This document shows, piece after piece, positions 35,044-55,304 of a stretch of DNA of 64,000 nt. The DNA lies in contig JBMNLH010000004.1 in the NCBI GenBank assembly GCA_050952625.1, forward strand, positions 256,001-320,000, read 5' to 3'. The translations under genes and the position numbers were made by a program. The notes beneath the pieces were generated by a model that searched no databases, was not told the origin of the DNA, and saw nothing but the letters and a program-made list of their open reading frames with translations. Position 1 is the stretch's first letter. Every line of letters begins with the position of its first letter. Source of the DNA: Bacillota bacterium (GTDB taxonomy: Bacteria > Bacillota > Ch66 > Ch109).

Positions 35044-35086
35044 GTGGCTACTGAAAAATTTGAACATGTTACTTTTTACCTGACCA
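35044..35086 (+). pseudogene. 5' part of split ribbon-helix-helix (CopG-like) gene, MATEKFEHVTFYLT
   Basis: GTG after GGAGAGGGGGGG; runs into left core; stops at 35091 in the integrated state. Confidence 0.8.
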
Positions 35087-36620
35087 GATAACAATTATTG
35101 CGCAAAATACCGGTGTTGATTCTATAGGTTACCTTAACCACAGGTACCTTGGGGTTTTCCCGACTGGGAAAGACCTCGATTTGATCGACCAACATCTTAA
35201 ATAGATCGTGTTTTACTTCATCCTCAGCCGCATTGATTATCTCTCCGATTTCATCAGCGATATCTTGCAGTTCCATACCCAGGTTAACAGTTTCTTGTTT
35301 TTCCTGTTGCTGTTTTAGCAACTGCTTTTCTCTGTTTTCAAGAGTTTTTAAATCGCGATTCCTTTCTTCGATATTGGAAAGGATATCGCTCTCAGAAACT
35401 ACGCCCTTGGCGAATAGGTCCAATAGTTTCTTTTTCTCCTGGGCCAGGGTTTTTTGGGCCTCTCTAATCTGGTGCAGTTCTTCATCCAGATTTACCGGGT
35501 TCACTGTTTCTTGTTCCAGATATTCAGCTACTTCTTTAGCTAATCTTCGCGGGTTGGCAAAGAAGTTTTTAATTTCATCCCAGATAATATTTTCTATGAT
35601 TTCTGCCGGCAGCCCGGGAGAATTACAAGTTGCATTACCAGGTAGTTTTTTTCGATGGTTGCAGCGATAATAGAAAAATTTGCCCTTATTACACGAGGTT
35701 CCGTTATAAGAACTCCCGCAGATGCCGCATTTTATTAATCCGCGCAGGAGATATTTTTTATAACTACCGGCCGGCTGAGACATAATTTTTCGCTCCTTTG
35801 CGATTTGTTGGGCCTTTTCAAATTCCTGCATTTCTATTATGACCGGAATAGGGATGTTGATCCGTTCTTGCCCGGGTGGTTTATAGGGGTACAGGCCGTT
35901 AGCATAAAATTTTGACTTAAGAATTTTTAGAACCGAATAAGAGCACCAACCGTGTTTCGAGCGAGGCAGATACCAGTCACCCTTAAAAGTAGCTGGAGAT
36001 GGTTTTCTATTGGCGTTCAAATAATCGACAATGGCCTGAAGACCCATTTCATCTTCGTTATAAAGCTTGAAGATTAAGCGAATGATTTCGGCTTGTTCTG
36101 GTGATATTTCAAGCTTTTTATTGTTTATGTAGTAACCAAATGGAATGTTTCCCTGGGGGAAAAAACCGTTACGCGCGTGACGCACCTTGCCTTCTGTAAA
36201 CCGCTGTTTAATTACCGCGCGGTCATAGGCGGCAAAGGTGGAAAACATACTGGCCATCAGCTGACCAGAAGGCTCAAAGTAGTTAAAAGGTTCATTGATT
36301 GAAATGAGGGATACGCCGGCTTTTTTAAAAAGCTGATATATCTCCTGGGCGACAAATTCATCTCTGGCCAGCCGGTCCACTCTTAGGATCAAGACTTGTG
36401 TTATTTTGCCCTCTAAGATGTCCAGGAGCATGCGTGAGCCTTCCGGACGGTCGCGCAAGGGTATAGTACCACTAATGCCGTCATCCTTGAACCAGTTATC
36501 TTCCAGGATCACAATATTCTGACGATCACAGTATTCTTTTATATTTTGGATTTGGGCCTGGATGTTGTCTCCCTTGGCTTGCTCTTCCGTGGAGACCCGG
36601 CAGTAAGCAGCATAGGACAT
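35076..36620 (-). CDS. Large serine recombinase (resolvase + recombinase + zinc ribbon + coiled coil)
   Basis: YCRVSTEEQ catalytic Ser, DDGISGT, DRLAR, PFGY, LLRGLIKCGICG, YYRC; last codons overlap left att core. Confidence 0.95.
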   Translation of the reverse strand: MSYAAYCRVSTEEQAKGDNIQAQIQNIKEYCDRQNIVILEDNWFKDDGISGTIPLRDRPEGSRMLLDILEGKITQVLILRVDRLARDEFVAQEIYQLFKKAGVSLISINEPFNYFEPSGQLMASMFSTFAAYDRAVIKQRFTEGKVRHARNGFFPQGNIPFGYYINNKKLEISPEQAEIIRLIFKLYNEDEMGLQAIVDYLNANRKPSPATFKGDWYLPRSKHGWCSYSVLKILKSKFYANGLYPYKPPGQERINIPIPVIIEMQEFEKAQQIAKERKIMSQPAGSYKKYLLRGLIKCGICGSSYNGTSCNKGKFFYYRCNHRKKLPGNATCNSPGLPAEIIENIIWDEIKNFFANPRRLAKEVAEYLEQETVNPVNLDEELHQIREAQKTLAQEKKKLLDLFAKGVVSESDILSNIEERNRDLKTLENREKQLLKQQQEKQETVNLGMELQDIADEIGEIINAAEDEVKHDLFKMLVDQIEVFPSRENPKVPVVKVTYRINTGILRNNCYLVR

Positions 36621-36868
36621 AGCAGAACCATTCCTTTATTTTTTATCATTTTAACATATTAAAAAACAGTGTCTATTATCTTAGCTGGCTTATTTTAACA
36701 TCCAGCGGAATCCAGTTATTGTAAACAAAGTAAAGCTGATGTAAAATTAAATAAAATTTTAGTAACATATCGATTATTGCATTTGAGAAAAAACCTCAAA
36801 TAGAGTTGTGAGCTATTCCCTTTTGGGGCATAATAGAGTTGTATAGGTAGGTAATAGGGGGTTCTGAA

Positions 36869-38188
36869 ATGCTAATTAATTATTCGTTTTCAAATTTTAG
36901 ATCCTTTAAAAACAGGACATCTCTTTCTATGTTAGCAGGAACACAAACAACTATGAATGAAAATCTAATTAGACAGGATGGTTATCGCATTATTCCATCT
37001 GTTGTTATTTATGGGGCTAATGCAAGTGGTAAGTCAAACATTATTATGTCTCTTGCGGTAATGAAGGAGATTATCTTAGCAGGATCTTTAGAATCCAATG
37101 TTCCGAACCTAAATAATCTTGAGATGTGCCCTTTTGCCCATAGTGATGATAAGAAGGCTATGTCTTTTGAGATAGAGTTCACCAACAAAGGATATCATCT
37201 TATTTATGGTTTTGAGGTTTTGTGCTCATTGTTTAAAAAAGATGTCAGAAGGATTCTTTCCGAAAATTTATCTATTGTAGACAACAAGTCCAAAAAGTCC
37301 AATCAAGTTAAGTTGTTTGCGCGAAATTCCGATGGCGTAATAATAATGAAAGATAAAGAAGCTCTAAATATTATCGAGTTTGATGAGAAACTTCTGGGGG
37401 AATTTGAAAAGAAAATTAATTCTAATCTTGATGATACCGAGCTTTTTCTATCAAGGGCCTTTAAGAGTACCATTAACAATGAACTTGCAGAGGCAGTAAT
37501 TGATTTCTTTAAAGACGAATTGGTTGTAGTTAGCGATTTTACCCTAAAGAAAGCAAATCTAACGTTTTCCCTTGAAGATTTGCCTAATAAAGATTTTTTT
37601 GCTTGGAACAAGATATTAGAAGGATTTGTGAAGATTGCAGACTTTGGGCCACAGAGCATTGCATTTAAATCGAATAAGTCGGACAATGAAAAATCTGCCG
37701 ACATGGAACTAGTCTCCATCTATCGGTATAAGGATAAAAATGCAGTAGTGATTCCAGCAGAATTAATGGAATCAAGAGGGACGCTGAAATTACTCGATTT
37801 TGCTATCCCTTTTGAATCGCTCTTTTCTTCCGGAGGTGTTTTTGTTCTTGATGAATTCGATGCAGCCATTCACCCCGAACTTATTAAAGGCATCATTGCA
37901 TTATTTAATGACCAGACTATCAATAAAAATGGAGCACAGCTAATATTCACCACCCATAACCCGATCTATTTAAACAATAAAATCTTCCGGAGAGACCAGA
38001 TAAGGTTTGTAGAAAAAGACCAGGATACTTTCGAGAGTGTGATATATTCCTTGGCCGACTTTGGTTCAAAGGAAATTCGAAATGACCATAATTACTTGAT
38101 TAATTATTTTAAAGGCAATTATGGAGCATTACCCTTCATCGATTTTTCCAAATTGCTGAGCAAAAGTGCTAGCGAGGAGGAAGAATAA
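36869..38188 (+). CDS. AAA_21-type ATPase, RloA/AbiLi-like
   Basis: NFRSFK, GANASGKSN, ESRGT, LDEFDAAIHP, QLIFTTHN, YFKGNYGA. Confidence 0.82.
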   Translation: MLINYSFSNFRSFKNRTSLSMLAGTQTTMNENLIRQDGYRIIPSVVIYGANASGKSNIIMSLAVMKEIILAGSLESNVPNLNNLEMCPFAHSDDKKAMSFEIEFTNKGYHLIYGFEVLCSLFKKDVRRILSENLSIVDNKSKKSNQVKLFARNSDGVIIMKDKEALNIIEFDEKLLGEFEKKINSNLDDTELFLSRAFKSTINNELAEAVIDFFKDELVVVSDFTLKKANLTFSLEDLPNKDFFAWNKILEGFVKIADFGPQSIAFKSNKSDNEKSADMELVSIYRYKDKNAVVIPAELMESRGTLKLLDFAIPFESLFSSGGVFVLDEFDAAIHPELIKGIIALFNDQTINKNGAQLIFTTHNPIYLNNKIFRRDQIRFVEKDQDTFESVIYSLADFGSKEIRNDHNYLINYFKGNYGALPFIDFSKLLSKSASEEEE

Positions 38189-38794
38189 ATGGCGTTCTAT
38201 CGAAAAAATTATTTTTGTATTTGTGATGGTCAGCAAGAAGAAATGTACCTGGACCATGTGGCTACACTCATAAAAGTTTTTCCAAAGAGGGTTGTAAAAT
38301 TTAATACAACAGTTGGCAATATTGATCTATTAAAGAGGACATATGTGGATTATGATAGAGCAGCGTTTTTTGATCATGATTTTAATGATAATGAATTCCA
38401 AAGAAATATAATACTTTGTAACCAGTTTAATCGACAGAGAGGGAGATCCACATACCATGCGTTTAGCAATGTAAACTTTGATCTATGGCTGATACTTCAT
38501 AAAGAAGAGTTTAATCGACCAGTTTTTAGCAATGATGCTTACCTGCCAGATGTTAGGAGAATTTATGGATTAGGGGCTACGGAAAATATAAAAAATAAAA
38601 GAACAATTAAGAAGATTCTTGATCAGATCACGTTAGAAGACGTTAAGAATGCTATTAGCCGAGCCAACCGGATTCGGGCTGAAAAGATCGATACAGACAA
38701 AAGAATGATCGGACCAACCATTTGTTATCCTAATCCTGATTTTTCGATCCATGAATTCTTAAAGGTAGTTTTAACTGATTGTGGAGAACTATGA
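38189..38794 (+). CDS. RloB/AbiLii-like protein
   Basis: ICDG..EEMY, FDHD, SNVNFDLWLILH, NP; abuts the ATPase stop. Confidence 0.72.
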   Translation: MAFYRKNYFCICDGQQEEMYLDHVATLIKVFPKRVVKFNTTVGNIDLLKRTYVDYDRAAFFDHDFNDNEFQRNIILCNQFNRQRGRSTYHAFSNVNFDLWLILHKEEFNRPVFSNDAYLPDVRRIYGLGATENIKNKRTIKKILDQITLEDVKNAISRANRIRAEKIDTDKRMIGPTICYPNPDFSIHEFLKVVLTDCGEL

Positions 38795-38921
38795 TCTGGA
38801 GAGGTAGTAGATGAACCCGTTCCCTGGAAGGTTACGAACAAGGGAAAAATTCGGTAGGATTATTGGCTTTGATTAGAATAAGGACAGTCAGGTTGGGTTC
38901 TGGGTGAGGGGGGATTTTATA

Positions 38922-39263
38922 ATGATATGGGAAGAAGTGAAAAAAGCATATTCTAATCAGTGGATAATCATCGAGGCTATTGAGGCTCATACAGAAGGGG
39001 ACAAAAGGGTTATTGCTCAAATGACCGTGGTTGATAATTTTCAAGACAATAATAAGGCTTTACTGCACTATTTGCAGTTGCACCGGAAGCATAGGGAGCG
39101 GGAACTCTATGTTGTTCATACTTCCCGTCCAGAATTAGATATAATTGAGCAGAAATCGATTGGAGTCAGGGCTGACATAGCGATTCCTCTTCGGGATCCG
39201 CATGAGTTCTATGACGACTGGGATGATCCGGCGGTGGATGCTAAATATGCTGAAACCTGGTGA
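38922..39263 (+). CDS. Hypothetical protein, possibly chimeric with an antitoxin-like acidic tail
   Basis: RBS GAGGGGG; tail FYDDWDDPAVDAKYAETW overlaps a PemK-like start. Confidence 0.5.
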   Translation: MIWEEVKKAYSNQWIIIEAIEAHTEGDKRVIAQMTVVDNFQDNNKALLHYLQLHRKHRERELYVVHTSRPELDIIEQKSIGVRADIAIPLRDPHEFYDDWDDPAVDAKYAETW

Positions 39264-39300
39264 TGTAGTTGCAAATTACTCAGTTTTAACAACAACATAA
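39247..39300 (+). pseudogene. Possible PemK/MazF toxin 5' remnant (MLKPGDVV...)
   Basis: ATG overlapping upstream gene end; KPGDVV resembles a PemK N-terminus; stops after 17 codons. Confidence 0.35.
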
Positions 39301-39314
39301 TACTCCAAAGGGAG

Positions 39315-39641
39315 TTGATTAAGTTGTCCAAGGAAGAACTTTATCGCTTAGTCGCCCGGCTTCCAGAGCAAAACATAGCGCGAGCAAAAAAGTGTCTAGA
39401 AAGACTAGTAGAAAGGATGCCCCCTGAAAGCGCAGCTGTGCCAAGACTAGGCAATATTCCTTTCTATATCGACCCGCTTTGTCCGGAATGTGGTGCGGCT
39501 TTAGTGTTAGCAGATCCACTTAATAACCCAGATGTAAATGAAAATGAAATCTGGCACGACGAATTTATTTGTCCATCCTGCCGTGACGGTATTTACATGG
39601 ATTGGCCAGAAAGCGAAATTAAATCCATTATTGAGGAATAA
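39315..39641 (+). CDS. Hypothetical zinc-ribbon protein
   Basis: CPECG and CPSC motifs. Confidence 0.55.
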   Translation: MIKLSKEELYRLVARLPEQNIARAKKCLERLVERMPPESAAVPRLGNIPFYIDPLCPECGAALVLADPLNNPDVNENEIWHDEFICPSCRDGIYMDWPESEIKSIIEE

Positions 39642-39815
39642 AACAAGGAAAAGTATTTGACTAAACCCGGTAAAGAGTGTTGATTACCGGGTTTTTATTT
39701 TTATTCGGGTTTCCAATCGGTTGTTTAGTCAAAATACATACTTTAAGAGTTTAAACTCGGCGTTTAACGTCGGGTTTTCTTTATTTATAAGCAACACAAA
39801 AAGGAGGGCAACACA

Positions 39816-40997
39816 TTGTTATTGTTTAATAAAACACCGTTAACCGTAAACTGCGAATTGGCTATGTTGATTGGACTCAATGAGTCTATAGTTGTTCAGC
39901 AGATTCATTATTGGATTAGAAAAAATCAAGAAAATAACATTAATTATTACGATGGGTACTATTGGACATACAATACATACGCTGACTGGCAAAAGCAATT
40001 TCCTTTTTGGTGCGAGAGAACGATCAAAAGGATTTTTCTATCTTTAGAGAGGAAAAACATTTTAATTTCAGATAATTTTAATCAGATGAAAAGAGACCGT
40101 ACAAAATGGTACCGAATCAATTATGAAGCATTGAATCAATTATATTTACAGGCAACGGAAAAACCGCATAACAGCGAATCGGGCCAAAATGGATCGACGG
40201 GTTGGAAACCCCGAAAACTGCGTGGCCACGCATCTGAACAAATTGGTACCATGCATCAGATCAATTTTACCCCATCCATCGGGACAAATTGTCACTATGG
40301 AACGGGACAAGTTGACCCGATGGGTGGGGACAAGTTGTCCCCACCATTACCAGAGACTAACACAGAGATTACTACAGAGACTAACAACAACAACATAACC
40401 GGGACCCGGTACCGGGTCCCGGAAGAGAAAACTAAAAATCCGATCGATGATGATGTTGTTGAACCAAGGGGTAACTCTACTTTAGACAATGTAATAAATT
40501 CCCAATCTGTAAAAACAGCAGCTGCAAAAGAGCAGCATCCTCAGCATTCGTTAACTGATTATCCAAAACTGCATTGTAAAAAAATATCTCCTTTTTCCGA
40601 TCGAGCTATGCAAAGCCGAGAGGATGAACAATCGGAAGAAATAAGGGAATTCTGGCCACAACTAGCTCAAGAAATAAACAGGGTCAGGAGTTTTTTGCGT
40701 GATAATGGGATCCGGCTTGAAGTGAATCGCAAGGCGGATAATGCCTGTTATGAACTCGCGAAATATTCTAACGAGCAGCTTGCTGTACTGGCTCAGGAGC
40801 TTCTGGCCAGAGAGGCGAAAGGCGAGATATTAAATGCTTCTGGATTATTGGTTTCTGCGCCTGGCGTTATAGCGTATATCCTAAAAGGGCCGTTCAATAA
40901 CAGTTTTAACCACGCAAGAAGTTTTTTTGATGGCAGAGGAAGGGAGGCTCAGATCAAAGCAAAAGAGGATAAATATCGCGATATTTATGTTACGTAA
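39816..40997 (+). CDS. Phage/ICE-type replication initiator
   Basis: IGLNESIVVQQIHYW...WTYNT...QFPFW...TKWYRINYE winged-helix N-terminus; central iteron region. Confidence 0.8.
   Translation: MLLFNKTPLTVNCELAMLIGLNESIVVQQIHYWIRKNQENNINYYDGYYWTYNTYADWQKQFPFWCERTIKRIFLSLERKNILISDNFNQMKRDRTKWYRINYEALNQLYLQATEKPHNSESGQNGSTGWKPRKLRGHASEQIGTMHQINFTPSIGTNCHYGTGQVDPMGGDKLSPPLPETNTEITTETNNNNITGTRYRVPEEKTKNPIDDDVVEPRGNSTLDNVINSQSVKTAAAKEQHPQHSLTDYPKLHCKKISPFSDRAMQSREDEQSEEIREFWPQLAQEINRVRSFLRDNGIRLEVNRKADNACYELAKYSNEQLAVLAQELLAREAKGEILNASGLLVSAPGVIAYILKGPFNNSFNHARSFFDGRGREAQIKAKEDKYRDIYVT
40231..40422. repeat. Putative replication origin inside rep: five 23-bp-period iterons and a perfect 24-bp palindrome
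   Basis: GGGACAARTTG-like units at 40235, 40258, 40281, 40304, 40327; CCGGGACCCGGTACCGGGTCCCGG at 40399-40422. Confidence 0.65.
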
Positions 40998-41119
40998 GAC
41001 TTTTTTATGTTTAAGGAAAACCAAATCTTGTAAATTGAGTAGAATTAGTATACACTAAAAGCAAGATAACCGAATAGGGCCATAACAGAGCGAAACAAAA
41101 AGATAGGAGTGGTAATTTA

Positions 41120-41512
41120 ATGCCTGGGCCGGCTGAAGAGTGGTTAACTCAATCAGCTTATGATTTAGACACTGCCAAAGCGATGCTCAAAACTGAGCGT
41201 TATATATACGTTGTATTCATGTGTCACTTAGCACTCGAAAAAGCGTTGAAAGGTTTATTTACTGTGGTCACCAACGGGCCACCTCCAAGGACACATAACT
41301 TGGTCCAACTTGCCAAAGTAACGCAACCTCGGCTTAATAAAGAACAGAATGCTTTTCTAGTAACGATTAATACTTTAAGTGTGACTACCCGCTACCCTGA
41401 TGATTTAAGTAAAGCGTTGAAAGAATTTAACCGGGAACAGGTGGAAAACTTCGTTGGCATGGCAGAAGAGGTGATTAGATGCATCCGGAAAGATCCCAGA
41501 TTGAGCAAATAA
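41120..41512 (+). CDS. HEPN domain protein (HEPN/MNT toxin-antitoxin)
   Basis: DLDTAK, FMCHLALEKALKG, PPRTHNL, TRYP. Confidence 0.85.
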   Translation: MPGPAEEWLTQSAYDLDTAKAMLKTERYIYVVFMCHLALEKALKGLFTVVTNGPPPRTHNLVQLAKVTQPRLNKEQNAFLVTINTLSVTTRYPDDLSKALKEFNREQVENFVGMAEEVIRCIRKDPRLSK

Positions 41513-41814
41513 TACAACGGTTTGGAGAAGTCTTAAAAAGCAAGGGTATTATTCCAGAGAATATTATACTCTTTGGCTCTTATGCAAAGGGAACCGCATC
41601 AGAATACAGCGATATTGATTTAGTGATAGTTTCTCAGGATTTTGCGGGTCTTTCCCTAATCGAAAGATGTACTATTATGGGCCAAGCTATTGCTGAAATT
41701 ATGGAACCAATTGAGCCCCTTGCTTATACGCCAGAAGAGTTTGTTAGACTTTCCCCACATAGTGTTATAGGCTCCGTGATGAATGACCCGATGGAGCATC
41801 TGAAAATATATTAA
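41479..41814 (+). CDS. Minimal nucleotidyltransferase (MNT)
   Basis: ILFGSYAKG...SDIDL, YTPEEF. Confidence 0.85.
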   Translation: MHPERSQIEQIIQRFGEVLKSKGIIPENIILFGSYAKGTASEYSDIDLVIVSQDFAGLSLIERCTIMGQAIAEIMEPIEPLAYTPEEFVRLSPHSVIGSVMNDPMEHLKIY

Positions 41815-42029
41815 ATACTCGTGAAAAATTTAATACCTTGCGGACTCAGGGACCCGGTAGAGTATTACAATTCTATTGGGTTTTTTATTGTTTTAAGGTT
41901 GTAGTTTGTAACAATCATGCATTTATTTAAGAGAAAGGAGGAATGATTAGTGCCTAAGAAAAGTTTCGCCCTAACCCGCTTTTCTCCTGAAAATTCCATC
42001 GGATTTAGGATTTTGCTTTTTAAGGCAGG

Positions 42030-42112
42030 ATAAGGGGCGCATACACACACCTGGCAAAGCCAGGTGGGGTGCGGGTTTGAGCGGGATGCACTTGTCTTGA
42101 ACGGGATGCACA
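42030..42112. other. Candidate origin of transfer
   Basis: Hairpin CACCTGGC-AAA-GCCAGGTG next to minus-strand GTATGCGCCCCTT (MOBQ nic-like); CGGGATGCAC twice; upstream of RHH gene. Confidence 0.45.
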
Positions 42113-42170
42113 AATGATGCTCCTATTTTATGGTAGTTTTTTATGAAGGGAGGGAGTTATTTCAGGTAAT

Positions 42171-43007: not shown

Positions 43008-43167
43008 GTAAGCAAGCAGCTGGTCGGAAGAACTTGCTACAAGTGAGGCGAATGGCCTCTTAAACTGGGACAACTGATAAGGCTGGGAATTGTTGTCCAG
43101 TACTCGGCATCAGCACCTAGCACTGGAGACCGGCAGAATGTAGTATTACTGTTTCGAAGTTCGATTA

Positions 43168-47764: not shown

Positions 47765-48286
47765 TTAGAAAATGGACGCAAAAATAATCCTTCAACAAAG
47801 ACTTTGCAAAAAATAGCCAAAGCCCTAGGGGTTTCAGTAACTGAATTGTTCAATGAACTTAATACAGGGGCTACTGGTGCGGATACATAATAGTTTCTAC
47901 TTTATTATAAAGCAGGCAACCAAACTTTACCAGCAATTCCAAGCGAATATGTAATCCTCGGGATCGACATCAGAGAACAGCAGCATGGCCACCCGACCAC
48001 ATTGATGCTGTTGACTAAAGTGCGATCTTTTTTTACTTTGAGCTGGGGTTAAGCAGTTAAACAAAAGCTAGCTCTAAAAAGCTGTTGGTTTATCTGATTG
48101 ATACCGGCAGCACCTGAACGTTGAAAACTTAATAAAGGGTTTGAATAGGACTGACACTCCACGGTTATCCTCGAAAACCGGCCGCTCGTTAGGGCTTAAG
48201 AGAAATTCAGCCTGGGGTTTTGGACCCCAATAACGCGCGTTACAATTTTATTTTATCTTCCCGAAAGATTATAAAGGGGGTATTTT

Positions 48287-48595
48287 GTGGCGGTTATTAT
48301 TTGCACAAAACCCCAAACGGGAAAATACTACAAATACCAGGATAAGGAAGATTTGACTGTTAGTGATATTAAGAACTTGGCTTTTGTATACGCTAGTAGT
48401 TGCTTAAGCGATAAAGAAGCCATTGTCGAGTTGGTATACACGAAAACAAGATTAATGGGAATAAGTTTGCTGGCTGAATATCTTATACTATTTAATGTCA
48501 CTTTCGATTTCTTTTTTTGGGAAAGCAAACTACAAAAGCTTTTTGAAGAAAAAAAGAAGATCAGTAAAAGGCGGCGATCCCAACCCGCTAAATAA
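48287..48595 (+). CDS. Hypothetical protein
   Basis: 102-aa ORF with AAAGGGGG RBS. Confidence 0.5.
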   Translation: MAVIICTKPQTGKYYKYQDKEDLTVSDIKNLAFVYASSCLSDKEAIVELVYTKTRLMGISLLAEYLILFNVTFDFFFWESKLQKLFEEKKKISKRRRSQPAK

Positions 48596-48657
48596 CGATG
48601 GAAATAAAAATACAGGAAGCTCATTTAACGATATTCGTTAATTGGCCTTATGGAATG

Positions 48658-48738
48658 CAAGTTAAAAGGATAAAACAGAAGAGAGAAAGTCTGACAAAAC
48701 ACCCGGAAAAATGGGGCATGGCGAAGCACGCCCAAAAT
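48658..48738 (+). repeat. 81-bp imperfect direct repeat, copy 2
   Basis: Matches 44642-44722. Confidence 0.85.
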
Positions 48739-48971
48739 CGCAACAGAATTTGAACCTTGAGAACTTAATAGAGGGTTAGCCTGGTTTCCTCGAAAACCTG
48801 AGCCGCCTGCTGTGGCGTACTGGGCCTCATTAAGCCCCTGCTTGTTTATAATTGAACATTAAAGCAGAAGAGAATACTCCGCCTGGGGTTTTAACCCTAA
48901 ACAGTATGCGTTACAATCTTGGTGTATTATTATGGTCCTCAGTTTTAGCTGAGGGCTTTTTTATTTAGTAA

Positions 48972-50510
48972 CTCAACTTTCGCAGTTGATTGATTAATAT
49001 ACTTCTGGTAATTTGAAATTTTGGAACAAAATAAAACAAAGCACCATATTTTCCTGGCATAATGAAGGTAACCACACCCAAAATTATGAGAGGATGGTGC
49101 TTTGCTTGACCTCCATTTTACCAGATCTTTACGAAAAAATCCAAGTTCAATCCAGAATAGCTCAGTTCATAAAAAGGTTTAATGTTCTTAGATTAATGAA
49201 AGAATCCGGATTTAAAAAGGCAAAAGGGGTTTCCTTAGTTAGCATTATCAAATTTCTAGTATCTTTGGTCTTTACCCATAAGAATTTGTTCCGAACTATG
49301 CAGCCTGGCAATGATCCAATGCCTTTTGCCAAAGATACTACATATCGGTTCCTAAACGATCCTCGTTCGGATTGGCGTCTACTGCAATTAAAATTGGGTG
49401 CAGGAATAATTAAACAGGATCTAAATTCATTAACTTCGGAAAAACGCGTCCGTGCTTTAGTTATCGACGATAGTTCCTATTATCGAGATAGAAGCAAGAA
49501 GGTAGAATTGCTTGCCCGAGTTAAGGACCACGTCACTGGTCGATACTTTAAGGGTTTTCGTAAACTAACTGCAGGATGGACTGACGGTGCCACTTTTATC
49601 CCTTTGGCCTTTTCTCTACTGAGTTCAACAAAAGCAGAAAATCGTCTTTATGAGCAGGGACCCCGGGTTCCTAAAGGTTCTCCAGGGGAACTACGACGTA
49701 AGGAAGCCGTGCAGTCAGGAACCTCATTATTATTGGATTTATTGGACCAGATTTTAGAACACGTTCAGGAGTTTCAATATGTTCTTTTTGACAGTTGGTT
49801 TAGCTGGCCGGATGTAATTAAAGGAGTAAAAGAACGTCAACGTGATGTGATTTGCATGCTTAAGGACATGCCGAAAATTAGTTATACCTATCAGGGCCAA
49901 ACCTTCCGTTTATCGGAATTATACAAAGTGGCTGCTAAACAATGTCAGAAGAAATCGTACATTGCGTCTGTGGTTGTTGATTACTACGAAGTTCCAGTAC
50001 GGATTGTCTTCGTACGTAATCGTAACAGCAGCCATAAACGTGAATGGCTGGCTTTATTGTCAACCAATTTAGAGGTAACTGAAGAAGAAATTATTCGGAT
50101 CTACGGCCTTCGTTGGGACATTGAAGTTTACTTCAAGATGTGTAAATCGTTTTTACGCTTAGCAAAAGAATTTCAGTCCCGTACCTATGATACTATGTTT
50201 GCTCACACTGCCATTGTTTCTATCCGCTACATGATATTAGCCATTGAGAACCGTGAAGGCAAAGATAGCCGAGCTAACGGAGAACTTTTTTACCTGTTTT
50301 GCGATGAGGTGGCAGATCTTGATTTTACTCAGGCTTTTTTGTATATTCTAGATTTGTTTACAAAGACACTCCGAGAAAATCTTTTTCTGTCTGACGCTAT
50401 GGTTAATCAGATCTTATCTTCATTTATGGATAAGCTGCCCAGTTTTATTAAAAATCGGTTGCGGCTTAATGCTACTTAAAAGAGTGGATTTGTCAACTGC
50501 GAAAGTTGAG
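48972..50510 (+). mobile_element. Insertion sequence, IS4/IS701-like DDE
   Basis: Perfect 18-bp IR CTCAACTTTCGCAGTTGA; 7-bp target duplication TTAGTAA (48965-48971, 50511-50517). Confidence 0.9.
49013..50479 (+). CDS. DDE transposase (IS4-like YREK signature)
   Basis: VIDDS, LFDSWF, YGLRWDIEVYFK; start probably further downstream. Confidence 0.85.
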   Translation: MKFWNKIKQSTIFSWHNEGNHTQNYERMVLCLTSILPDLYEKIQVQSRIAQFIKRFNVLRLMKESGFKKAKGVSLVSIIKFLVSLVFTHKNLFRTMQPGNDPMPFAKDTTYRFLNDPRSDWRLLQLKLGAGIIKQDLNSLTSEKRVRALVIDDSSYYRDRSKKVELLARVKDHVTGRYFKGFRKLTAGWTDGATFIPLAFSLLSSTKAENRLYEQGPRVPKGSPGELRRKEAVQSGTSLLLDLLDQILEHVQEFQYVLFDSWFSWPDVIKGVKERQRDVICMLKDMPKISYTYQGQTFRLSELYKVAAKQCQKKSYIASVVVDYYEVPVRIVFVRNRNSSHKREWLALLSTNLEVTEEEIIRIYGLRWDIEVYFKMCKSFLRLAKEFQSRTYDTMFAHTAIVSIRYMILAIENREGKDSRANGELFYLFCDEVADLDFTQAFLYILDLFTKTLRENLFLSDAMVNQILSSFMDKLPSFIKNRLRLNAT

Positions 50511-50666
50511 TTAGTAAATTTAAAAATTATTAATAAACATTGTCAGGAATCAATAGCTGGGAGGACATCTTTTTAATTATGTATAAACAGGTTACAAAGG
50601 GGTGATTCCGGAATAGAAACATAGTTTAGTAGTTTAGATTTAAAATGGATTCGAGGAGGAAAAAAC

Positions 50667-51590
50667 ATGCGAAAATTAATTGTTCTACTACTCACTTTAA
50701 TATTTATGATGGTTTCCGTACCAGCCTTTGCCGCTGATATTGCTGATGTTAAGGTAACCGTCAATGGGGTAGAGGTTTATTTCCCGGATCAGAAACCGTA
50801 CATAGACAAAAACCTTGACAGAACCTATGTCCCTTTACGATTTGTCACTGATTACCTGGGCGGAACCTCCGAATGGGATGGAGCCAACAGTACCGCGAAG
50901 ATTAAACGGAATGGGATTCGGATTGAAATGCCCACCTGGTCGATCAGCCCGGTAGTCAACGGAGAACAGAAAACGATGGATGCCCCGGCTGTTTTGGTTA
51001 ATGACCGCACCTGCGTTCCGCTGCGGTTTGTTTCGGAATTCATGGGGGCCAATGTTGAGTGGATTCCGGCGAACTGGGAAGCTCGGATCACTGATGCGAA
51101 GGCCCCAAAAGCGAAAGACCCGGACGTTAAGCGAATGGAGACTCTTTTTGGGGTTGAGTTGAAAGAGAGGGAGAACGATAAGGGCTATTATGAATACCAT
51201 GAATGCGTAGCCCTGAAAAGCAAGGATTACTATCGGAGTTATCTTTCGGTTGCGGTGAATACCCGTGAGGACTATAGATATATTGAAGTTGGGGCAGCCT
51301 GGCCACACAACGGGGTTGTTGGATTGGGTTACGTTCATCCCAGCAAAGTTAACATTGACCTCAGCCCCCTGGAAAAAGTGGTGGAAGAATTGATCCCCGA
51401 TTACCGGAAAAAGGATCAGATTTTGGCCCACGCTTACAAGGTAGTGGAAAAAAGCCAACAGCTTGTGGAAGAGGGTCAAGAAAAAGAGAAAATTCTTAAG
51501 AGAATATTTGAAGATGTACCAGGATATAGCGTCGTAGTCGTCGGACAGGAAGCTTTCAGCTACGCCATGATCAGATTCGTTAAAAATTAG
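50667..51590 (+). CDS. Secreted protein with copper amine oxidase N-terminal (stalk) domain
   Basis: Signal peptide AFA-A, FPDQKPYI, RTYVPLRFV and RTCVPLRFVSE. Confidence 0.8.
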   Translation: MRKLIVLLLTLIFMMVSVPAFAADIADVKVTVNGVEVYFPDQKPYIDKNLDRTYVPLRFVTDYLGGTSEWDGANSTAKIKRNGIRIEMPTWSISPVVNGEQKTMDAPAVLVNDRTCVPLRFVSEFMGANVEWIPANWEARITDAKAPKAKDPDVKRMETLFGVELKERENDKGYYEYHECVALKSKDYYRSYLSVAVNTREDYRYIEVGAAWPHNGVVGLGYVHPSKVNIDLSPLEKVVEELIPDYRKKDQILAHAYKVVEKSQQLVEEGQEKEKILKRIFEDVPGYSVVVVGQEAFSYAMIRFVKN

Positions 51591-51597
51591 AGAAAGG

Positions 51598-52203
51598 ATG
51601 GCTGATTTGAAAAACAAAAAAATTTTAACTGGCTTAATTGCCCTGACTTTACTATCAGGGCTTCTCTTTATCCTTTATCATCAGGTTTTTCAGAGAGATT
51701 ATCTAGAGGCACCTTCCCAAGTCGTTAAACCAGCAGATGTTCAGACGATAGAGAATACCCTGGGAATAACAATGACTGGAGAGGGTGATTCTTGGCGGTA
51801 TAGTCTTCAAAAGGAGGAAGTGTTAAATTCACCCTGGCAAAGTTATTTGGAGATTTACCAAAGCGATGGAGTTGTTAAATTGATGCTGAATTATCCTTAT
51901 AACAGCCCAGGTTTAAAGGAAGTAGCGGTAGAACTAAACCCAATGAATAAAATTCTGAATAGTTACTTCCCTGAAGACGCAGAGCTAACCGCTTCTATTA
52001 TGGATTCCATCCAGCAGTCGATAGCAAAAATGCAGGAAAGCAACGGCTTTGATAAACCAGAGAGCACTCATTTTACTGCCAATTCCAAAGGTATTGTTGT
52101 TCAAACCTTAAAAGATTATCCGAATTTAGTAACTCTAGTTATCTACGAGAGAGAGGAGGGGGTCGAATGGGTCGATGCTTTAAATCAACGGGAGCTGTCT
52201 TGA
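51598..52203 (+). CDS. Membrane-anchored hypothetical protein
   Basis: Single N-terminal TM helix; operonic overlap with neighbours. Confidence 0.6.
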   Translation: MADLKNKKILTGLIALTLLSGLLFILYHQVFQRDYLEAPSQVVKPADVQTIENTLGITMTGEGDSWRYSLQKEEVLNSPWQSYLEIYQSDGVVKLMLNYPYNSPGLKEVAVELNPMNKILNSYFPEDAELTASIMDSIQQSIAKMQESNGFDKPESTHFTANSKGIVVQTLKDYPNLVTLVIYEREEGVEWVDALNQRELS

Positions 52204-54101
52204 TGATTGTGGTTATGCTTTTAACCTCATCGACTTTCAGCCTGGCCAACAACGACAGTAAAATTGATCTGCTTTTAAGGACCGTTTATGGGACAGAGGA
52301 ATGTCCTCATCGTGGTTATCTTGAACACCCTGACAACGGAAAACTTCTATACGCTCGGCTAGACAGCAACGAAAACCTTGTTTTCGGCACCCCTTATGAT
52401 GTGCCGGGCAACAACTGGAGGCCCACCACCGACCCGGTTCACCCTGGCGGTTGGGCAGAACGTAATCCAGACGTGGCTAGGCAATCTGATTGGGGAAAAG
52501 AACCCGCTTTTTTAGGTCACTCTTCTACTTTTGAAAAATTCTCTAACGACTGGTATCCGCCGAGTAGAGAACATAGGAATCTGGGCACCTTAAATTTAAT
52601 TAAGGAGCCTTGGAATAAATCAGGCATTGATTGTCAAGGAAATAACACCAATTTAAACCTTGCTGAACTAGAAAAAAAAGCCATCGTTGACGCAATTAAA
52701 AACTACGGAGCCGCCCTTTCATTGCAGTATAACGGCAAAGACAAGGGCTCTTTTGAGAATAACCCCCTGCTTACAAACGGCAATTTTGAAGATAACGTTT
52801 TCGACTACTTCTTGGTTTTATCCAAACCCTACCCAGGCGTTTCTGGTACGGTTCGTTACTGGCATAAATACAATGGCATTACCTATTATGACACTATCAC
52901 CGTCCACTGGAGCCAGGGACCGGACTTCTACCTTGAAAACCTCAACCCTAACGTATACGACAATGGAGGGCAACCTCTTTACCCGGGCAAGACTTACCAA
53001 GGTAAAGTTATAGCCAAAGTTCAACGCGAAACAGGTAGTTACATGGATCCGATTACCCAAAAGTTTCTTGATGTTTCCAAGCTTGAAGATAAACGGCCAA
53101 CCTTCAACAAAATCCCGATCTACGTCACTATTGACGGTGCTTATTTAAATCCTACTAACATTCGATCTACCCAAACCGGCTTAGGCATTAACGGTGGGGT
53201 GGCCTACCTGGACCCGATGGAGATAGATCGGGAGTACCCGATAGATTTTTTCTTCACTGTGCCCAGCGACTACAATAAAACAGCTATTGAAATCAAGGTG
53301 GTCATTAATACCTTTGAAGCTGATGGTTTTATACCCCCAGGCATAGCACCTAACGGAGCTGAACAATTTAATTTGGCTAACAACATGATCACAGTCAGCG
53401 TTCCCGTAGGTGATGAAAGCAAAGGCCCTGAAGACGAGGTTAAATTACCCACAGAGGATCTTTCGGTCAAAAGTATGACGGTCTTGGATGCTGCAAGCGA
53501 TCAACAAGTAACGAGCGTTAAAGCTAATCAACCCCTAAAGATACAAGCTGTCTTTAATTCAACTTTTCCCGAGGCAGGATGGGTTAAACTGCGGCTTTAT
53601 AAACACCAGGTTGAATACAACAAATTAGATAAAGTAGGCGACACAGTTATTGCTCATATGGATGCTAACGGCACCCTAAACCAAGAATGGCCTGGCATAA
53701 CTATTGGTACAGGTGAATATGCCTTTGTTGTTTCAATCAACGCCATTAATAAGGGCAACGATCCAAATACTAATTGGGAAATAGAAAAATACACTACGGA
53801 TACAGGGGAGGAATTCAAAGAGGCTGACCATGACACTCCCAACGAAAGTAACAACAAATTAGCCTACTCATTAACGGGGAGTGATGCGCCACCCAAAGAA
53901 CCTCAGCCGGTGGTACAAACTCAATCAGTTTGGTTTCCACCCAAGACATGGAAGCTTGTTGAGGATTACAGAACAGAGACAATAGATATATATGGCTGGC
54001 GAGAGGTTGAATTTATCAAAGATCCTAGCAAAGCTAGAATTATTACGAGAATGGTTCCAAATGTTGAAAAGGAGAAATCAGAAGAACCGGAAGAGTGGTA
54101 A
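52167..54101 (+). CDS. Large secreted protein with beta-rich (Ig/CARDB-like) C-terminal domains
   Basis: Signal peptide, DFYLENL/DLSVKSM...NN motifs; function unknown. Confidence 0.6.
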   Translation: MGRCFKSTGAVLMIVVMLLTSSTFSLANNDSKIDLLLRTVYGTEECPHRGYLEHPDNGKLLYARLDSNENLVFGTPYDVPGNNWRPTTDPVHPGGWAERNPDVARQSDWGKEPAFLGHSSTFEKFSNDWYPPSREHRNLGTLNLIKEPWNKSGIDCQGNNTNLNLAELEKKAIVDAIKNYGAALSLQYNGKDKGSFENNPLLTNGNFEDNVFDYFLVLSKPYPGVSGTVRYWHKYNGITYYDTITVHWSQGPDFYLENLNPNVYDNGGQPLYPGKTYQGKVIAKVQRETGSYMDPITQKFLDVSKLEDKRPTFNKIPIYVTIDGAYLNPTNIRSTQTGLGINGGVAYLDPMEIDREYPIDFFFTVPSDYNKTAIEIKVVINTFEADGFIPPGIAPNGAEQFNLANNMITVSVPVGDESKGPEDEVKLPTEDLSVKSMTVLDAASDQQVTSVKANQPLKIQAVFNSTFPEAGWVKLRLYKHQVEYNKLDKVGDTVIAHMDANGTLNQEWPGITIGTGEYAFVVSINAINKGNDPNTNWEIEKYTTDTGEEFKEADHDTPNESNNKLAYSLTGSDAPPKEPQPVVQTQSVWFPPKTWKLVEDYRTETIDIYGWREVEFIKDPSKARIITRMVPNVEKEKSEEPEEW

Positions 54102-54407
54102 AAAAACAAGTGCCTGGCAGTGTTTTTCATAAAGCAAATCAATAAGAGTTAGATTTATTTCTCGAACAAGGATAAGGCGTTATTAACCGAGCCCGGTAGA
54201 GCATCACAGCTCTATCGGGTTATTAATTTGAATAGCACCACAATAATTAATCCCGAACAATATGTGATATATCATCCGGCTTATGCTCTTTTCCCCACGG
54301 CGAATCAAGGATAAAGGCGATGAAGGTTCAATGATTCTAAAATTAGGGGGGTGATTGAACGCTTGTTAAAGCATATAAATTACAAAAGACATCAGGGGGA
54401 ATTCCCT

Positions 54408-54584
54408 ATGAAAATAAAAAAGCCTATCAGAATGTATTATCAAGAGCCTGAGCCTGGGCCAAAAGATGAGGAGGTATTAAACGAACTAGCTAGATATATT
54501 GCAGAAATAATTAAACGAAAACATAGAGTAATTTCGCCTGTTGGTGTAGCTCTTCAAGCTGATCAACCCGGTCAAGAAAGCTGA
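54408..54584 (+). CDS. Small protein, candidate recombination directionality factor
   Basis: 58 aa, AGGGGG RBS, near right att; role is inference only. Confidence 0.4.
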   Translation: MKIKKPIRMYYQEPEPGPKDEEVLNELARYIAEIIKRKHRVISPVGVALQADQPGQES

Positions 54585-54660
54585 TCGACAACCAAATGTT
54601 GTAAAAAAATAAAGTCTATTATACAATTAAATAAAAAGAAATCTTTTATTAGTAGCCTGG

Positions 54661-54729
54661 ATGATTACCGCTTATTATCCTGATCCAGAAGAATGGCAGG
54701 AAGATTTAAAAACAAGGAGAGGTAATTAA
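54661..54729 (+). pseudogene. 3' remnant of a DUF4258-type toxin gene
   Basis: ITAYYPDPEEWQEDLKTRR resembles the DUF4258 C-terminus; directly precedes YgiT-type finger. Confidence 0.55.
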
Positions 54730-54730
54730 T

Positions 54731-54961
54731 ATGAATTGTGTTGCTTGTAAAGCGAATTTAAGTCAGGGAATGATTAATCATATCGTTGATGTAGAGGGGC
54801 AGATCATTATTATTAAAAACGTACCAGCCCAGGTATGCTCTCAGTGTGGAGAATATTATCTTGAACATCAGGTGGCTATTAATTTAGAACACATGATTGA
54901 AGACTCAAAAAAGACCCGAGCTGAAGTGAGTATAATTAACTACTTCGACCGGGTAGCCTAA
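54731..54961 (+). CDS. YgiT-type zinc finger / MqsA-like antitoxin
   Basis: MNCVACK...IIIKNVPAQVCSQCGEYY. Confidence 0.8.
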   Translation: MNCVACKANLSQGMINHIVDVEGQIIIIKNVPAQVCSQCGEYYLEHQVAINLEHMIEDSKKTRAEVSIINYFDRVA

Positions 54962-55000
54962 ATAGCCATGCAGGGAAGGAAGAGCCACCGGCAATATGAC

Positions 55001-55177
55001 TCAAGACATCCTATTCGTCACAATATAGATTCTCTTCCCGACATAACCCCCTTTATACTTACCCTGGCCAAAAGAAGAACGTATCATATCCGGGGATTGT
55101 CCAATTGCTTTTCCCAGAGAAACCGTGCTGTGCAAGAAGTAGGAACGGTCTATTTGAAATTTGCGCAGAGATTGATG
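55001..55177 (-). other. Detached 58-codon C-terminal extension of the recombinase (in frame only on the excised circle)
   Basis: Reading frame continues from ...YLVR across attP into HQSLRKF...VTNRMS-stop. Confidence 0.7.
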
Positions 55178-55178
55178 T

Positions 55179-55304
55179 CTGACCAAAAAGCAGGTAGAAA
55201 AAATAAAGGTCCTGGCGGAAGAGCAGCAGATATCAAGGAGTGCCCTGGTGCGAATAATAATCACCGACTACCTATCGAGAAATACCAAGCCTAAATTACG
55301 GTAG
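55179..55304 (+). pseudogene. 3' part of split RHH gene, LTKKQVEKIKVLAEEQQISRSALVRIIITDYL...
   Basis: In frame with 35044 half via shared core; in-frame TGA at 55173 means no alternative start. Confidence 0.82.

What the first reader, a model, noticed from the sequence alone, without database searches (positions are those of the whole stretch)
35076..55185. Recombinase rewrites its own C-terminus: circle form gains an excisionase-like HTH domain
Seen: the crossover lies in the last codons of the recombinase. Integrated, it ends ...NCYLVR-stop (514 aa) using host antisense sequence. On the circle the frame runs on through 55177-55001, adding 58 aa (572 aa total). The added STVSLGKAIGQSPDMIRSSFGQGKYKGGYVGKRIYI aligns by eye without gaps to the HTH_17/Xis pattern (LGxS...I..G.....IGRRxxI). 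Known: att sites within int or repressor genes act as switches in SSV1 and some mycobacteriophages, and serine integrases normally need a separate directionality factor. Inference: a built-in state switch in which two isoforms differ in directionality, stability or autoregulation.
Basis: partly seen in the sequence, partly recalled or inferred. Interest (0 to 1): 0.92.

Follow-up and report, generated by a model that had tools for sequence, protein, structure and literature searches.

The report
Serine integrase truncated by its own integration
A 20-kb mobile island carries its insertion site inside the last codons of its own integrase gene, so the enzyme should be 58 amino acids longer when the island is a free circle than when it is inserted; this layout is real and conserved here but has been described before for other integrases.

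Summary
Observation confirmed. A 20.1-kb low-GC island (35080-55185) sits in a small ribbon-helix-helix (RHH) gene. Four relatives carry that gene intact. The crossover lies in the last codons of a 514-aa large serine recombinase. Its final residue and stop codon are host DNA. On the circle the frame runs on for 58 codons (55177-55004; stop 55003-55001).

New here: this holds across the clade. All 14 members seen end in LV[K/R]. All 5 loci I could read sit at the same point of the same gene, and host Phe-Tyr codons read antisense give the stop. The frame is open past the crossover in 4 of 4 elements whose far end I found (58, 59, 40, 35 aa). Against a relative with 75% identity, tail dN/dS is 0.157 (integrase 0.09; the other five frames 0.42-2.3). 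The tail is therefore coding.

The "excisionase-like HTH" reading is unproven. There is no Pfam hit, the fold confidence is low, and the profile match is weak. No circle junction was seen in public contigs.

The layout is in print for SPbeta-like phage Goe14 (serine integrase) and for Mx8. This scan also noted it before on other DNA. New member of a known kind.

The parts
35076..36620 (-). Large serine recombinase gene, integrated form (514 aa). Codons up to Val513 belong to the island. The last base of Val513, codon 514 (AGG) and the stop (TAA 35078-35076) are host DNA.
   Evidence: Resolvase, Recombinase, Zn_ribbon_recom; sequence
35080..35086 (.). attL core CTGACCA. The crossover is inferred at the central AC (35083-35084).
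   Evidence: In relative G001 the two cores share only TGAC. The arms are symmetric around AC.
35044..35085 (+). 5' fragment of the host RHH gene (VATEKFEHVTFYLT). Its Phe-Tyr codons (TTT TAC), read antisense, give the integrase's stop codon.
   Evidence: intact gene in 4 relatives
35087..35110 (.). attP half-site on the integrase side (P' arm). It also encodes integrase residues about 504-512.
   Evidence: 19 of 26 positions symmetric with the other arm
55155..55178 (.). attP half-site on the tail side (P arm). It also encodes the first 8 or so tail residues.
55179..55185 (.). attR core CTGACCA
55001..55177 (-). Tail: 58 codons plus stop, in frame with the integrase across attP. It would be translated as an integrase extension only from the excised circle. 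It is basic (10 K+R, 2 D+E, pI 10.5).
55001..55264 (-). 87-aa ORF that spans attR in the integrated state: 29 codons antisense to the host RHH gene (GTG start), then the tail. No convincing ribosome-binding site.
   Evidence: The equivalent 88-aa ORF exists in G001. The frame is closed 5 and 2 codons upstream in G002 and G003.
55179..55304 (+). 3' fragment of the host RHH gene (LTKKQVEKIK...), left without a start codon by the insertion.
   Evidence: RHH_1 E 4.9e-6
36648..36745 (-). Two promoter-like sites upstream of the integrase start, inside the island. These are consensus matches only.
36869..38794 (+). Cargo: AbiLi/AbiLii-like defence pair (AAA_21 ATPase plus RloB).
   Evidence: AbiLi E 1.4e-77, AbiLii E 4.4e-11
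39816..40997 (+). Replication-initiator-like gene (DnaD-like helicase loader / replication initiation PHROGs). The excised circle may therefore replicate.
   Evidence: phrog_6493 E 4e-38

Best explanation
This is an integrative island whose attP site lies inside the 3' end of its own large-serine-recombinase gene.

Shown from sequence:
- The island's integrase ORF has no stop codon of its own at the 514-aa position.
- Inserted in the host RHH gene, it is closed one codon after the crossover by a stop that the host's conserved Phe-Tyr codons (TTY TAY) create on the opposite strand.
- In the circle the same ORF continues across attP for 58 more codons that lie at the far end of the integrated island.
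- That tail evolves under purifying selection as strong as that on the integrase's own C-terminal region. It has no conserved start codon or ribosome-binding site of its own.

Inferred: the tail is made as part of a 572-aa integrase, and only from the excised (or newly arrived) circle. Integration switches synthesis to the 514-aa form.

Most likely role, inferred and unproven: the small, very basic tail is an extra nucleic-acid-binding or regulatory module, possibly winged-helix-like. It would tune the circle-made enzyme for integration or for control of its own expression. The truncated resident form would be the one that answers to an excision signal. This is the same logic as Mx8 IntP/IntX and as proposed for phage Goe14.
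For: Boundaries and the empty site.

Clade-wide rule:
- 13 of 13 aligned integrases, plus L086, end in LV[K/R] at the same column.
- 5 of 5 loci read (window, L001, L002, L003, L086) have the antisense RHH start directly after the stop.
- 9 of 9 RHH genes examined (5 occupied, 4 empty) give a stop right after the K/R codon.

Open frame:
- Past the crossover the integrase frame is open for 58, 59, 40 and 35 aa in 4 of 4 elements.
- The other two frames of that strand close after 0-41 codons.
- Shuffles of each region reach the observed length with P 0.032, 0.015, 0.087 and 0.114.

Selection, window against G001:
- 165 ungapped bases are 74.5% identical, and differences by codon position are 13/8/21.
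- dN/dS is 0.157, or 0.125 without the first 9 codons that double as the attP arm. The other five frames give 0.42-2.3.
- Fisher p is 8e-7. The integrase as a whole gives 0.09 and its last 100 codons 0.20.
- Similarity between the two islands falls away within about 12 bases of the tail's stop codon.

No separate gene:
- The only start-type codon shared by both tails is an internal ATG at residue 31, with no purine-rich site before it (read).
- In G002 and G003 the host antisense frame is closed 5 and 2 codons upstream.
- No terminator-like site lies on the minus strand between the crossover and the tail's end.

attP arms are symmetric at 19/26, 19/26, 19/26 and 14/26 positions.

Plausibility of a C-terminal DNA-binding add-on: 3 of 3 long relatives checked (P0029, P0050, P0056) carry HTH_3 domains after the zinc-ribbon/coiled-coil part. 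All four tails are basic, pI 10.3-10.9.

Precedents: Goe14 (passages of the preprint) and Mx8 (passage of a review).
Against: - No circle junction, long protein or junction peptide was observed. The 12 close homologues in the protein collection are all 505-513 aa. No phage, plasmid or viral-contig record holds a close relative in the free form.
- Selection was measured on one pair of elements only.
- The tails of G002 and G003 are shorter and align only loosely (26% and 31% identity). Their open frames alone are not significant (P 0.087 and 0.114).
- In G001 and G002 the two island ends lie on different contigs of metagenome-assembled genomes. In G003 they are 122.5 kb apart. Pairing rests on there being one integrase and one RHH 3' fragment per genome, and on arm symmetry.
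- The tail has no detectable relative anywhere and no confident fold, so its role is a guess.
- In one RNA library the only contigs on the island lie at 54721-54920 and 55000-55147, and none on the integrase. Whatever RNA covers the tail there need not come from integrase read-through, and its strand is unknown.
Confidence: 0.6

Rival explanations
1. One reading: the tail is a true HTH_17/Xis-type excisionase domain. The circle form would then be an integrase fused to its own directionality factor, and the two isoforms would differ in direction of recombination.
For: Its score is 17.6, the shuffle mean is 9.0 (sd 2.2), and 2 of 200 shuffles reach it. The low-confidence AlphaFold2 model puts a helix at tail residues 29-37 and a beta-hairpin at 42-53, where HTH_17 has its recognition helix and wing. 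The tail is basic.
Against: - The hhalign probability is only 15.6%.
- Pfam gives no hit at E <= 10, and PF12728 searched over the genome does not ring at the tail at E <= 0.001.
- Model pLDDT is 49.5, and the first helix of the motif is not predicted.
- G002 and G003 tails, as aligned, end before most of this segment.
- Engineered integrase-RDF fusions block attP x attB and drive attL x attR (passages of PMC12286644). A circle-made fusion of that kind would hinder the circle's own integration.
- Serine-integrase RDFs are not, as a rule, Xis-type DNA benders (recalled).
Confidence: 0.2
2. The tail is used in the integrated state, as the C-terminal two-thirds of the 87-aa ORF that spans attR (55264-55001). 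That ORF starts at a GTG antisense to the host RHH gene. It would be a small protein made only by the resident island, for example its directionality factor.
For: The frame is open 28 codons into host DNA with a GTG start in both the window and G001. An RNA-library contig covers 55000-55147 while no contig of that run lies on the integrase (strand unknown). In Goe14 the detached piece is likewise annotated as a new 97-aa ORF.
Against: - The upstream 28 codons are simply the antisense of a conserved host gene, so their openness needs no selection.
- No clear ribosome-binding site precedes the GTG (read).
- In G002 and G003 the frame is closed 5 and 2 codons upstream with no start codon.
- No gene caller's product resembling it exists among 1.84 billion representatives.
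- A promoter would have to sit in host DNA, firing against the host gene.
Confidence: 0.1
3. The extension is a tolerated by-product. The working enzyme is the 514-aa form in both states, and the tail is either untranslated or irrelevant. Its conservation would come from attP or from something else encoded there.
For: The 514-aa protein contains every domain of a complete large serine recombinase. All database relatives have that length. The first 8 or so tail codons are attP arm DNA. The tail has no relatives or confident fold.
Against: dN/dS is 0.125 for the 46 codons beyond the attP arm, with a third-position excess. None of the other five frames shows this. The ungapped homology block ends about 12 bases before the tail's stop codon, and nothing beyond the stop aligns convincingly. 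The database lengths carry no weight here, because all those proteins come from integrated copies whose stop is host DNA.
Confidence: 0.1

Closest known systems
Serine integrase of SPbeta-like Bacillus phage vB_BsuS-Goe14 (Kohm et al., bioRxiv 10.1101/2021.11.22.469490; I read passages; its supplements 7 and 8 were not seen)
   Same: It is a large serine recombinase whose attP lies in its own C-terminal coding region. Integration into a host gene (spoVK) truncates it and leaves the detached piece as an ORF at the other prophage end. The authors speculate that the long form integrates and the short form excises.
   Different: Goe14 loses 131 aa of a long extension with no known fold, and the core is 3 bases (AAG). 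Here 58 aa are lost, the host supplies the stop through conserved Phe-Tyr codons, the element is a 20-kb defence island rather than a 130-kb phage, and the target is an RHH gene. The window integrase's best match in the phage collection is 31% identical. The tail has no match in phages. Purifying selection on the detached tail was measured here.
Myxophage Mx8 integrase IntP/IntX (Tojo et al. 1996 and Magrini et al. 1999, known to me only through a passage and the reference list of the review PMC6070905)
   Same: attP lies within the integrase coding sequence. Integration creates a gene with a new 3' end, and the altered prophage enzyme is still active but with changed properties.
   Different: Mx8 Int is a tyrosine recombinase (recalled). 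There the C-terminus is exchanged rather than simply cut one codon after the crossover.
Integration-dependent immunity of mycobacteriophages and relatives (Broussard et al. 2013, as described in PMC9934374, PMC6109161 and the CyranoPS preprint; passages read)
   Same: The attP core sits in the 3' part of a phage gene. Host DNA supplies a stop, so the prophage form is shorter. The remnant sits at attR, and the truncation is a state switch.
   Different: There the truncated gene is the repressor, the lost piece is a short ssrA-like degradation tag, and the integrase is a tyrosine recombinase. Here the truncated gene is the serine integrase itself, and the tail does not end in such a tag (it ends NRMS; in G001, QLVK).
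Large serine recombinases with a permanent C-terminal HTH_3 domain (P0029, P0050, P0056; domains mapped)
   Same: They have the same core architecture, about 30% identity to this integrase, and an extra small DNA-binding-type domain after the zinc-ribbon/coiled-coil part.
   Different: In those proteins the extra domains are a recognised family (HTH_3, twice) and are part of the ORF as called on the contig. I did not examine whether their att sites cut them off.

Membership tests
Large serine recombinase / serine integrase | N-terminal resolvase-type catalytic domain followed by the Recombinase domain and a zinc-ribbon domain with a long insertion | tested here: met
   Resolvase residues 4-152 (E 5.8e-30), Recombinase 174-277 (5.4e-11), Zn_ribbon_recom 291-351 (2e-15), then about 160 more residues. 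R8, S10 and four zinc-ribbon cysteines (C298, C301, C320, C332) are invariant in 13 sequences.
Large serine recombinase / serine integrase | attP of about 50 bp with imperfect dyad symmetry around a central dinucleotide; only a few bases shared with attB | tested here: met
   arms agree at 19 of 26 positions around AC. The shared core is 7 bases in the window and 4 in G001.
Large serine recombinase / serine integrase | Catalyses attP x attB integration; needs a directionality factor for excision | not testable with these tools
   No assay. The empty site in 4 relatives shows past integration only.
Integrases whose attP lies inside their own coding region (Mx8 IntP/IntX; Goe14) | The crossover point falls within the integrase ORF, so the integrated and free forms encode different C-termini | tested here: met
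   the crossover is in codon 513, a host-supplied codon 514 and stop follow, and the frame is open for 58 aa on the far end.
Integrases whose attP lies inside their own coding region (Mx8 IntP/IntX; Goe14) | The free-form C-terminus is a functional part of the protein | tested here: met
   By selection only: dN/dS is 0.157 against 0.09 for the integrase, Fisher p 8e-7, on one pair of elements. The protein itself was not observed.
Integrases whose attP lies inside their own coding region (Mx8 IntP/IntX; Goe14) | The two forms differ in activity | not testable with these tools
   Needs recombination assays.
HTH_17 / Xis-type excisionase domain (PF12728) | Sequence match to the family profile at or above its cut-off (27 bits) | tested here: not met
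   No Pfam family at E <= 10. The PF12728 six-frame search of the genome gave one hit elsewhere (21.8 bits) and none at the tail.
HTH_17 / Xis-type excisionase domain (PF12728) | Winged helix-turn-helix fold | tested here: inconclusive
   AlphaFold2 pLDDT is 49.5, with one helix and a hairpin. Foldseek gave 0 matches at E <= 0.001. hhalign probability is 15.6%, and 2 of 200 shuffles score as well.
Integration-dependent immunity (Broussard et al. 2013 type) | attP inside the repressor gene; the lost piece is an ssrA-like degradation tag; tyrosine integrase | tested here: not met
   The gene cut is the serine integrase. The tail is 58 aa and ends NRMS. The form of an ssrA-like tag is recalled, not tested.
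Recombination directionality factor of a serine integrase | Small protein that binds the integrase's second DNA-binding domain / coiled-coil hinge and switches it to attL x attR | not testable with these tools
   No family profile exists for these diverse proteins and no assay was possible. See Tried and rejected for the one structure job.

The most novel reading that the evidence does not exclude
The tail is a built-in directionality lock. The 572-aa enzyme made by the circle can only integrate, because its tail occupies or masks the site where a directionality factor acts or adds a DNA contact that attP needs. The 514-aa enzyme made by the resident island is the only form able to excise. One gene plus the position of its own att site would then give a serine integrase its direction control without ordinary gene regulation. 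Integrase catalogues built from integrated copies would hold the wrong (truncated) protein for whole clades.
Probability: 0.15. Interest if true: 0.75.

Novelty: new member of a known kind. Interest (0 to 1): 0.45.

Why it matters
Serine integrases are prized genome-engineering tools, and how they choose direction is an active question. Here selection shows that the form encoded by the free element is longer than the form annotated in genomes. Every database entry for this clade is the integration product, with a host-encoded last residue and stop.

If this holds for other clades, as earlier notes of this scan and the Goe14 report suggest, catalogues mined from integrated copies may be testing truncated enzymes.

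The system is small (a 514/572-aa enzyme with roughly 50-bp sites), so the proposed difference between isoforms can be tested directly in E. coli or in vitro. The principle itself is already in print for one serine integrase (as speculation) and for Mx8. The value here is a clean, conserved, testable example, not a new concept.

Tried and rejected
1. Relatives of the tail.
- The search for homologous proteins among longer proteins found none.
- The exhaustive search of 1.84 billion representatives gave one hit, E 4.6e-4, to a 1136-aa Ig-like repeat protein. I take it as spurious: five repeat stretches, 27% identity.
- ESM Atlas gave no usable hit.
- PHROGs and NCBIfam gave none.
- tblastn against phages and plasmids at E <= 1 gave none.

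2. Free-form copies of the integrase. IMG/VR held no relative. The best match was 31% identical in phages and 29% in plasmids. The metagenome scan gave one close locus, also integrated.

The contexts of 9 of the 12 close homologues could therefore not be read. I used the search for related loci and the genome search instead.

4. Circle junction in public data. All 24 runs offered are kept as contigs. I laid 4 of them (X1, X7, X8, X15) on 35186-55185, because the 20,000-base limit cannot hold both att sites. No joint links the island's two ends. Contigs drop rare forms, so this says nothing about whether circles exist. The RNA contigs at 54721-54920 and 55000-55147 have no strand and may belong to the plus-strand gene 54731-54961 reading outward.

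5. Complex prediction of integrase residues 280-514 with the tail returned no verdict (score 0.02; the mark is 0.32). This is neither for nor against binding.

6. Foldseek of the low-confidence tail model against the PDB gave 0 of 83 listed matches at E <= 0.001. The list is peppered with winged-helix proteins, and mycobacteriophage Pukovnik Xis stands at rank 50 (E 8.3). A model of pLDDT 49.5 makes this meaningless.

7. Far ends within 10 kb of the integrase in L001-L003: none. They were found elsewhere in the same genomes.

8. I considered that the island might restore the cut RHH gene. It does not: TGA stands in frame at 55173-55175, just upstream of the 3' fragment.

9. Literature searches for a serine integrase with attP in its own gene did not surface the Goe14 passage by themselves. 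I found no paper on this Syntrophomonadaceae clade or on an RHH-gene target. Those five searches, are all that this statement rests on.

Full report
WHAT IS THERE

The window holds a 20.1-kb island. Its GC is 0.34-0.45 between 35001 and 56000, against 0.44-0.56 elsewhere. Its left end carries a minus-strand ORF, 35076-36620, of 514 aa. That ORF has the three domains of a large serine recombinase: Resolvase, Recombinase and Zn_ribbon_recom.

The same heptamer, CTGACCA, stands at 35080-35086 and at 55179-55185. Just left of the first copy a plus-strand reading frame starts at GTG 35044 (VATEKFEHVTFYLT). Just right of the second copy it continues (LTKKQVEKIKVLAEEQQISRSALVR...; RHH_1 E 4.9e-6).

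Of 41 related genomes searched with the 3' fragment, 6 had a match. Two hold the split gene: the window's own genome and G007. G007 has the same contig and coordinates as G001, so I take the two handles as one genome. Four (G005, G006, G008, G022) carry the gene whole, with FY followed directly by LTKK or LTLR. The island's ends and its target are therefore fixed. The target is a 55-57-aa ribbon-helix-helix gene lying between a patatin-like gene and spoIIR.

Read on the minus strand, the integrase ends TGT TAT CTG GTC AGG TAA. The core covers CTG GTC AG. The last base of Val513, codon 514 and the stop lie in host DNA. At the far end the same frame enters at 55177 and stays open to 55004, with the stop at 55003-55001: 58 codons. 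So the circle would encode 572 aa.

The two ends, read outward from the central AC, agree at 19 of 26 positions. This is the imperfect dyad expected of a serine-integrase attP. In relative G001 the two cores share only TGAC, which places the crossover there.

IT IS A RULE OF THE CLADE

The protein search gave 12 full-length close homologues (43-75% identity), all 505-513 aa. Aligned with the query, all 13 end in LV[K/R] at the same column.

At first sight this suggests that 514 aa is the natural length. It is not. In all 5 loci I could read (window, L001, L002, L003, L086), the bases after the stop are the antisense of the RHH gene's first codons. Every known member is thus an integrated copy in the same gene at the same point.

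The stop arises because the host's Phe-Tyr codons (TTY TAY), read on the other strand in the integrase frame, always give TAA or TAG. The host's Leu codon (CTG or TTG) decides whether the last residue is R or K. The four empty sites give the same antisense stop. That makes 9 of 9 RHH genes examined.

IS THE TAIL CODING?

I found the far ends of three relatives by searching their genomes with the RHH 3' fragment. The integrase frame is open past the crossover in 4 of 4 elements, for 58, 59, 40 and 35 aa. The two other frames of that strand close after 0-41 codons. Shuffles of each region reach the observed length with P 0.032, 0.015, 0.087 and 0.114. On its own this is suggestive only.

The stronger evidence is the pair window/G001, whose integrases are 75% identical.
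- The tails align without a gap over 165 bases at 74.5% identity, and the two islands lose similarity within about 12 bases of the tail's stop codon.
- Differences fall 13/8/21 on codon positions 1/2/3.
- dN/dS is 0.157 in the integrase frame. It is 0.125 without the first 9 codons that double as the attP arm. The other five frames give 0.42-2.3.
- Fisher's test of synonymous against non-synonymous change gives p = 8e-7. The integrase gives 0.09 overall and 0.20 for its last 100 codons.

The tail is thus constrained like the enzyme it would be fused to.

It has no start of its own. The only start-type codon shared by both tails is an internal ATG at residue 31, without a ribosome-binding site. 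In the integrated state the frame does run 28 codons into host DNA to a GTG in the window and in G001. That stretch is just the antisense of a conserved host gene, and in G002 and G003 it is closed after 5 and 2 codons.

CAVEATS

- Selection rests on one pair of elements.
- The shorter tails of G002 and G003 align only loosely with the others.
- In G001 and G002 the two ends lie on different contigs of metagenome-assembled genomes. In G003 they are 122.5 kb apart.
- The arm symmetry specific to G002 (19 of 26) supports its pairing. G003's is weaker (14 of 26).

WHAT IS THE TAIL?

It has no detectable relative. It is very basic: 10 K+R against 2 D+E, pI 10.5. All four tails have pI 10.3-10.9.

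- Pfam gave nothing at E <= 10.
- PF12728 run over the whole genome in six frames did not ring at the tail.
- AlphaFold2 on the two-row alignment gave pLDDT 49.5, with a helix at residues 29-37 and a hairpin at 42-53.
Its probability is 15.6%, and 2 of 200 column shuffles score as well.

This is a hint, not a finding. A C-terminal DNA-binding add-on is plausible in itself: 3 of 3 long relatives checked carry HTH_3 domains after the core.

IS THE CIRCLE SEEN?

No. All runs on offer are contigs. In the four I laid, no joint links the two ends, which proves nothing for a rare form.

One RNA library has contigs only at 54721-54920 and 55000-55147. Their strand is unknown.

HOW IT LIKELY WORKS

Shown: the position of attP makes the integrase ORF state-dependent, and the long form's extra part is under selection.

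Inferred: the 572-aa enzyme is made only from the circle, the integrase's promoter-like sites lying inside the island, and integration switches production to the 514-aa enzyme.

What the tail does is open. I favour an extra DNA-contacting or regulatory module that suits the circle-made enzyme to integration or self-control.

A plain fusion to a directionality factor fits poorly. Engineered integrase-RDF fusions block attP x attB, which is the reaction the circle needs. The same paper notes that C-terminal extensions might block the RDF site. That would fit a lock on the integrating form.

COMPARISON WITH WHAT IS KNOWN

The layout is not new.
- Kohm et al. describe SPbeta-like phage Goe14. Its serine integrase has attP in its own C-terminal coding region and loses 131 aa on integration into spoVK. 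They speculate that the long form integrates and the short form excises (passages only, supplements not seen).
- Mx8's integrase gene likewise contains attP and acquires a new 3' end on integration (a review passage).
- Integration-dependent immunity does the same to repressors.
- Earlier notes of this scan report the layout in several other genomes. Two notes on this same genome state the same observation and the same att sites.

What this case adds:
- a clade in which every known copy shows the layout;
- a host-encoded stop guaranteed by conserved codons;
- a measured selective constraint on the detached tail.

THE ISLAND ITSELF

The island is not a prophage by its content. It carries the following:
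- an AbiLi/AbiLii-like pair;
- a HEPN/nucleotidyltransferase pair;
- a replication-initiator-like gene;
- Xre-type regulators and two transposase genes.

VERDICT

The two-isoform reading is supported. The HTH/excisionase identity and any difference in directionality are unproven. This is a new member of a known kind.

Noticed in passing
window 45858-47858: The transposase-bearing stretch (ORF 46009-47700, DUF4277 + DDE_Tnp_1) has 4-10 times the contig depth of the rest of the island in three DNA runs. One contig of run X8 joins 45888 to 47765, so a form of the island without this insertion sequence exists.
   Followed up: partly
window 44637-44722 and 48653-48738: An 86-base direct repeat (88% identical) stands 4 kb apart inside the island. 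Each copy follows a regulator-type module.
   Followed up: no
window 44985-45173: Three tandem 63-base units (86% and 67% identical to the first) lie inside the minus-strand ORF 44731-45240, which gives only weak coiled-coil-type Pfam matches.
   Followed up: no
window 54721-54920 and 55000-55147: In metatranscriptome run X15 the only contigs on the whole island lie over the YgiT-type zinc-finger ORF (54731-54961) and over the tail. Their strand is unknown. They carry two differences inside the tail (55077, 55085), both non-synonymous in the tail frame by my reading.
   Followed up: partly
window 54351-54584; L083 524-643; L084 about 1215-1399; L085 about 1700-1865 (minus strand): A small plus-strand ORF with the motif ...L.EL(A).(Y)(F)A..I... 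sits next to the tail in the three relatives. It has a homologue in the window (P0125), where an extra zinc-finger ORF (P0124) is inserted between it and the tail. In G002 and G003 the tail's last codons overlap this gene's 3' end.
   Followed up: no
P0029, P0050, P0056: Large serine recombinases of 688-698 aa with two HTH_3-type stretches after the zinc-ribbon/coiled-coil part. This is a permanent C-terminal DNA-binding add-on in a clade about 30% identical to this one.
   Followed up: partly
G003:C1:540520-663057; G002 contigs C22 and C24; G001 contigs C78 and C188: The related element in G003 would be about 122.5 kb long if its two ends belong together. In G001 and G002 the ends lie on different contigs.
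   Followed up: no
L002 and L086: Two different integrases of the clade have C-termini MTTRIGSDLVR and MNARNNCYLVR. They sit next to nearly identical host flanks, so different elements use the same site in closely related hosts.
   Followed up: no
G000:C1:966084-967502: A second large serine recombinase in the same genome, 29% identical to this one, in an open frame of 525 aa.
   Followed up: no
window 33955-34902, 55548-56336, 56537-57412: Host neighbours of the target gene are a patatin-like phospholipase, SpoIIR and a GHMP kinase. The interrupted RHH gene thus lies next to a sporulation gene, as do the targets of several Bacillus intervening elements (the comparison is recalled and partly).
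   Followed up: no
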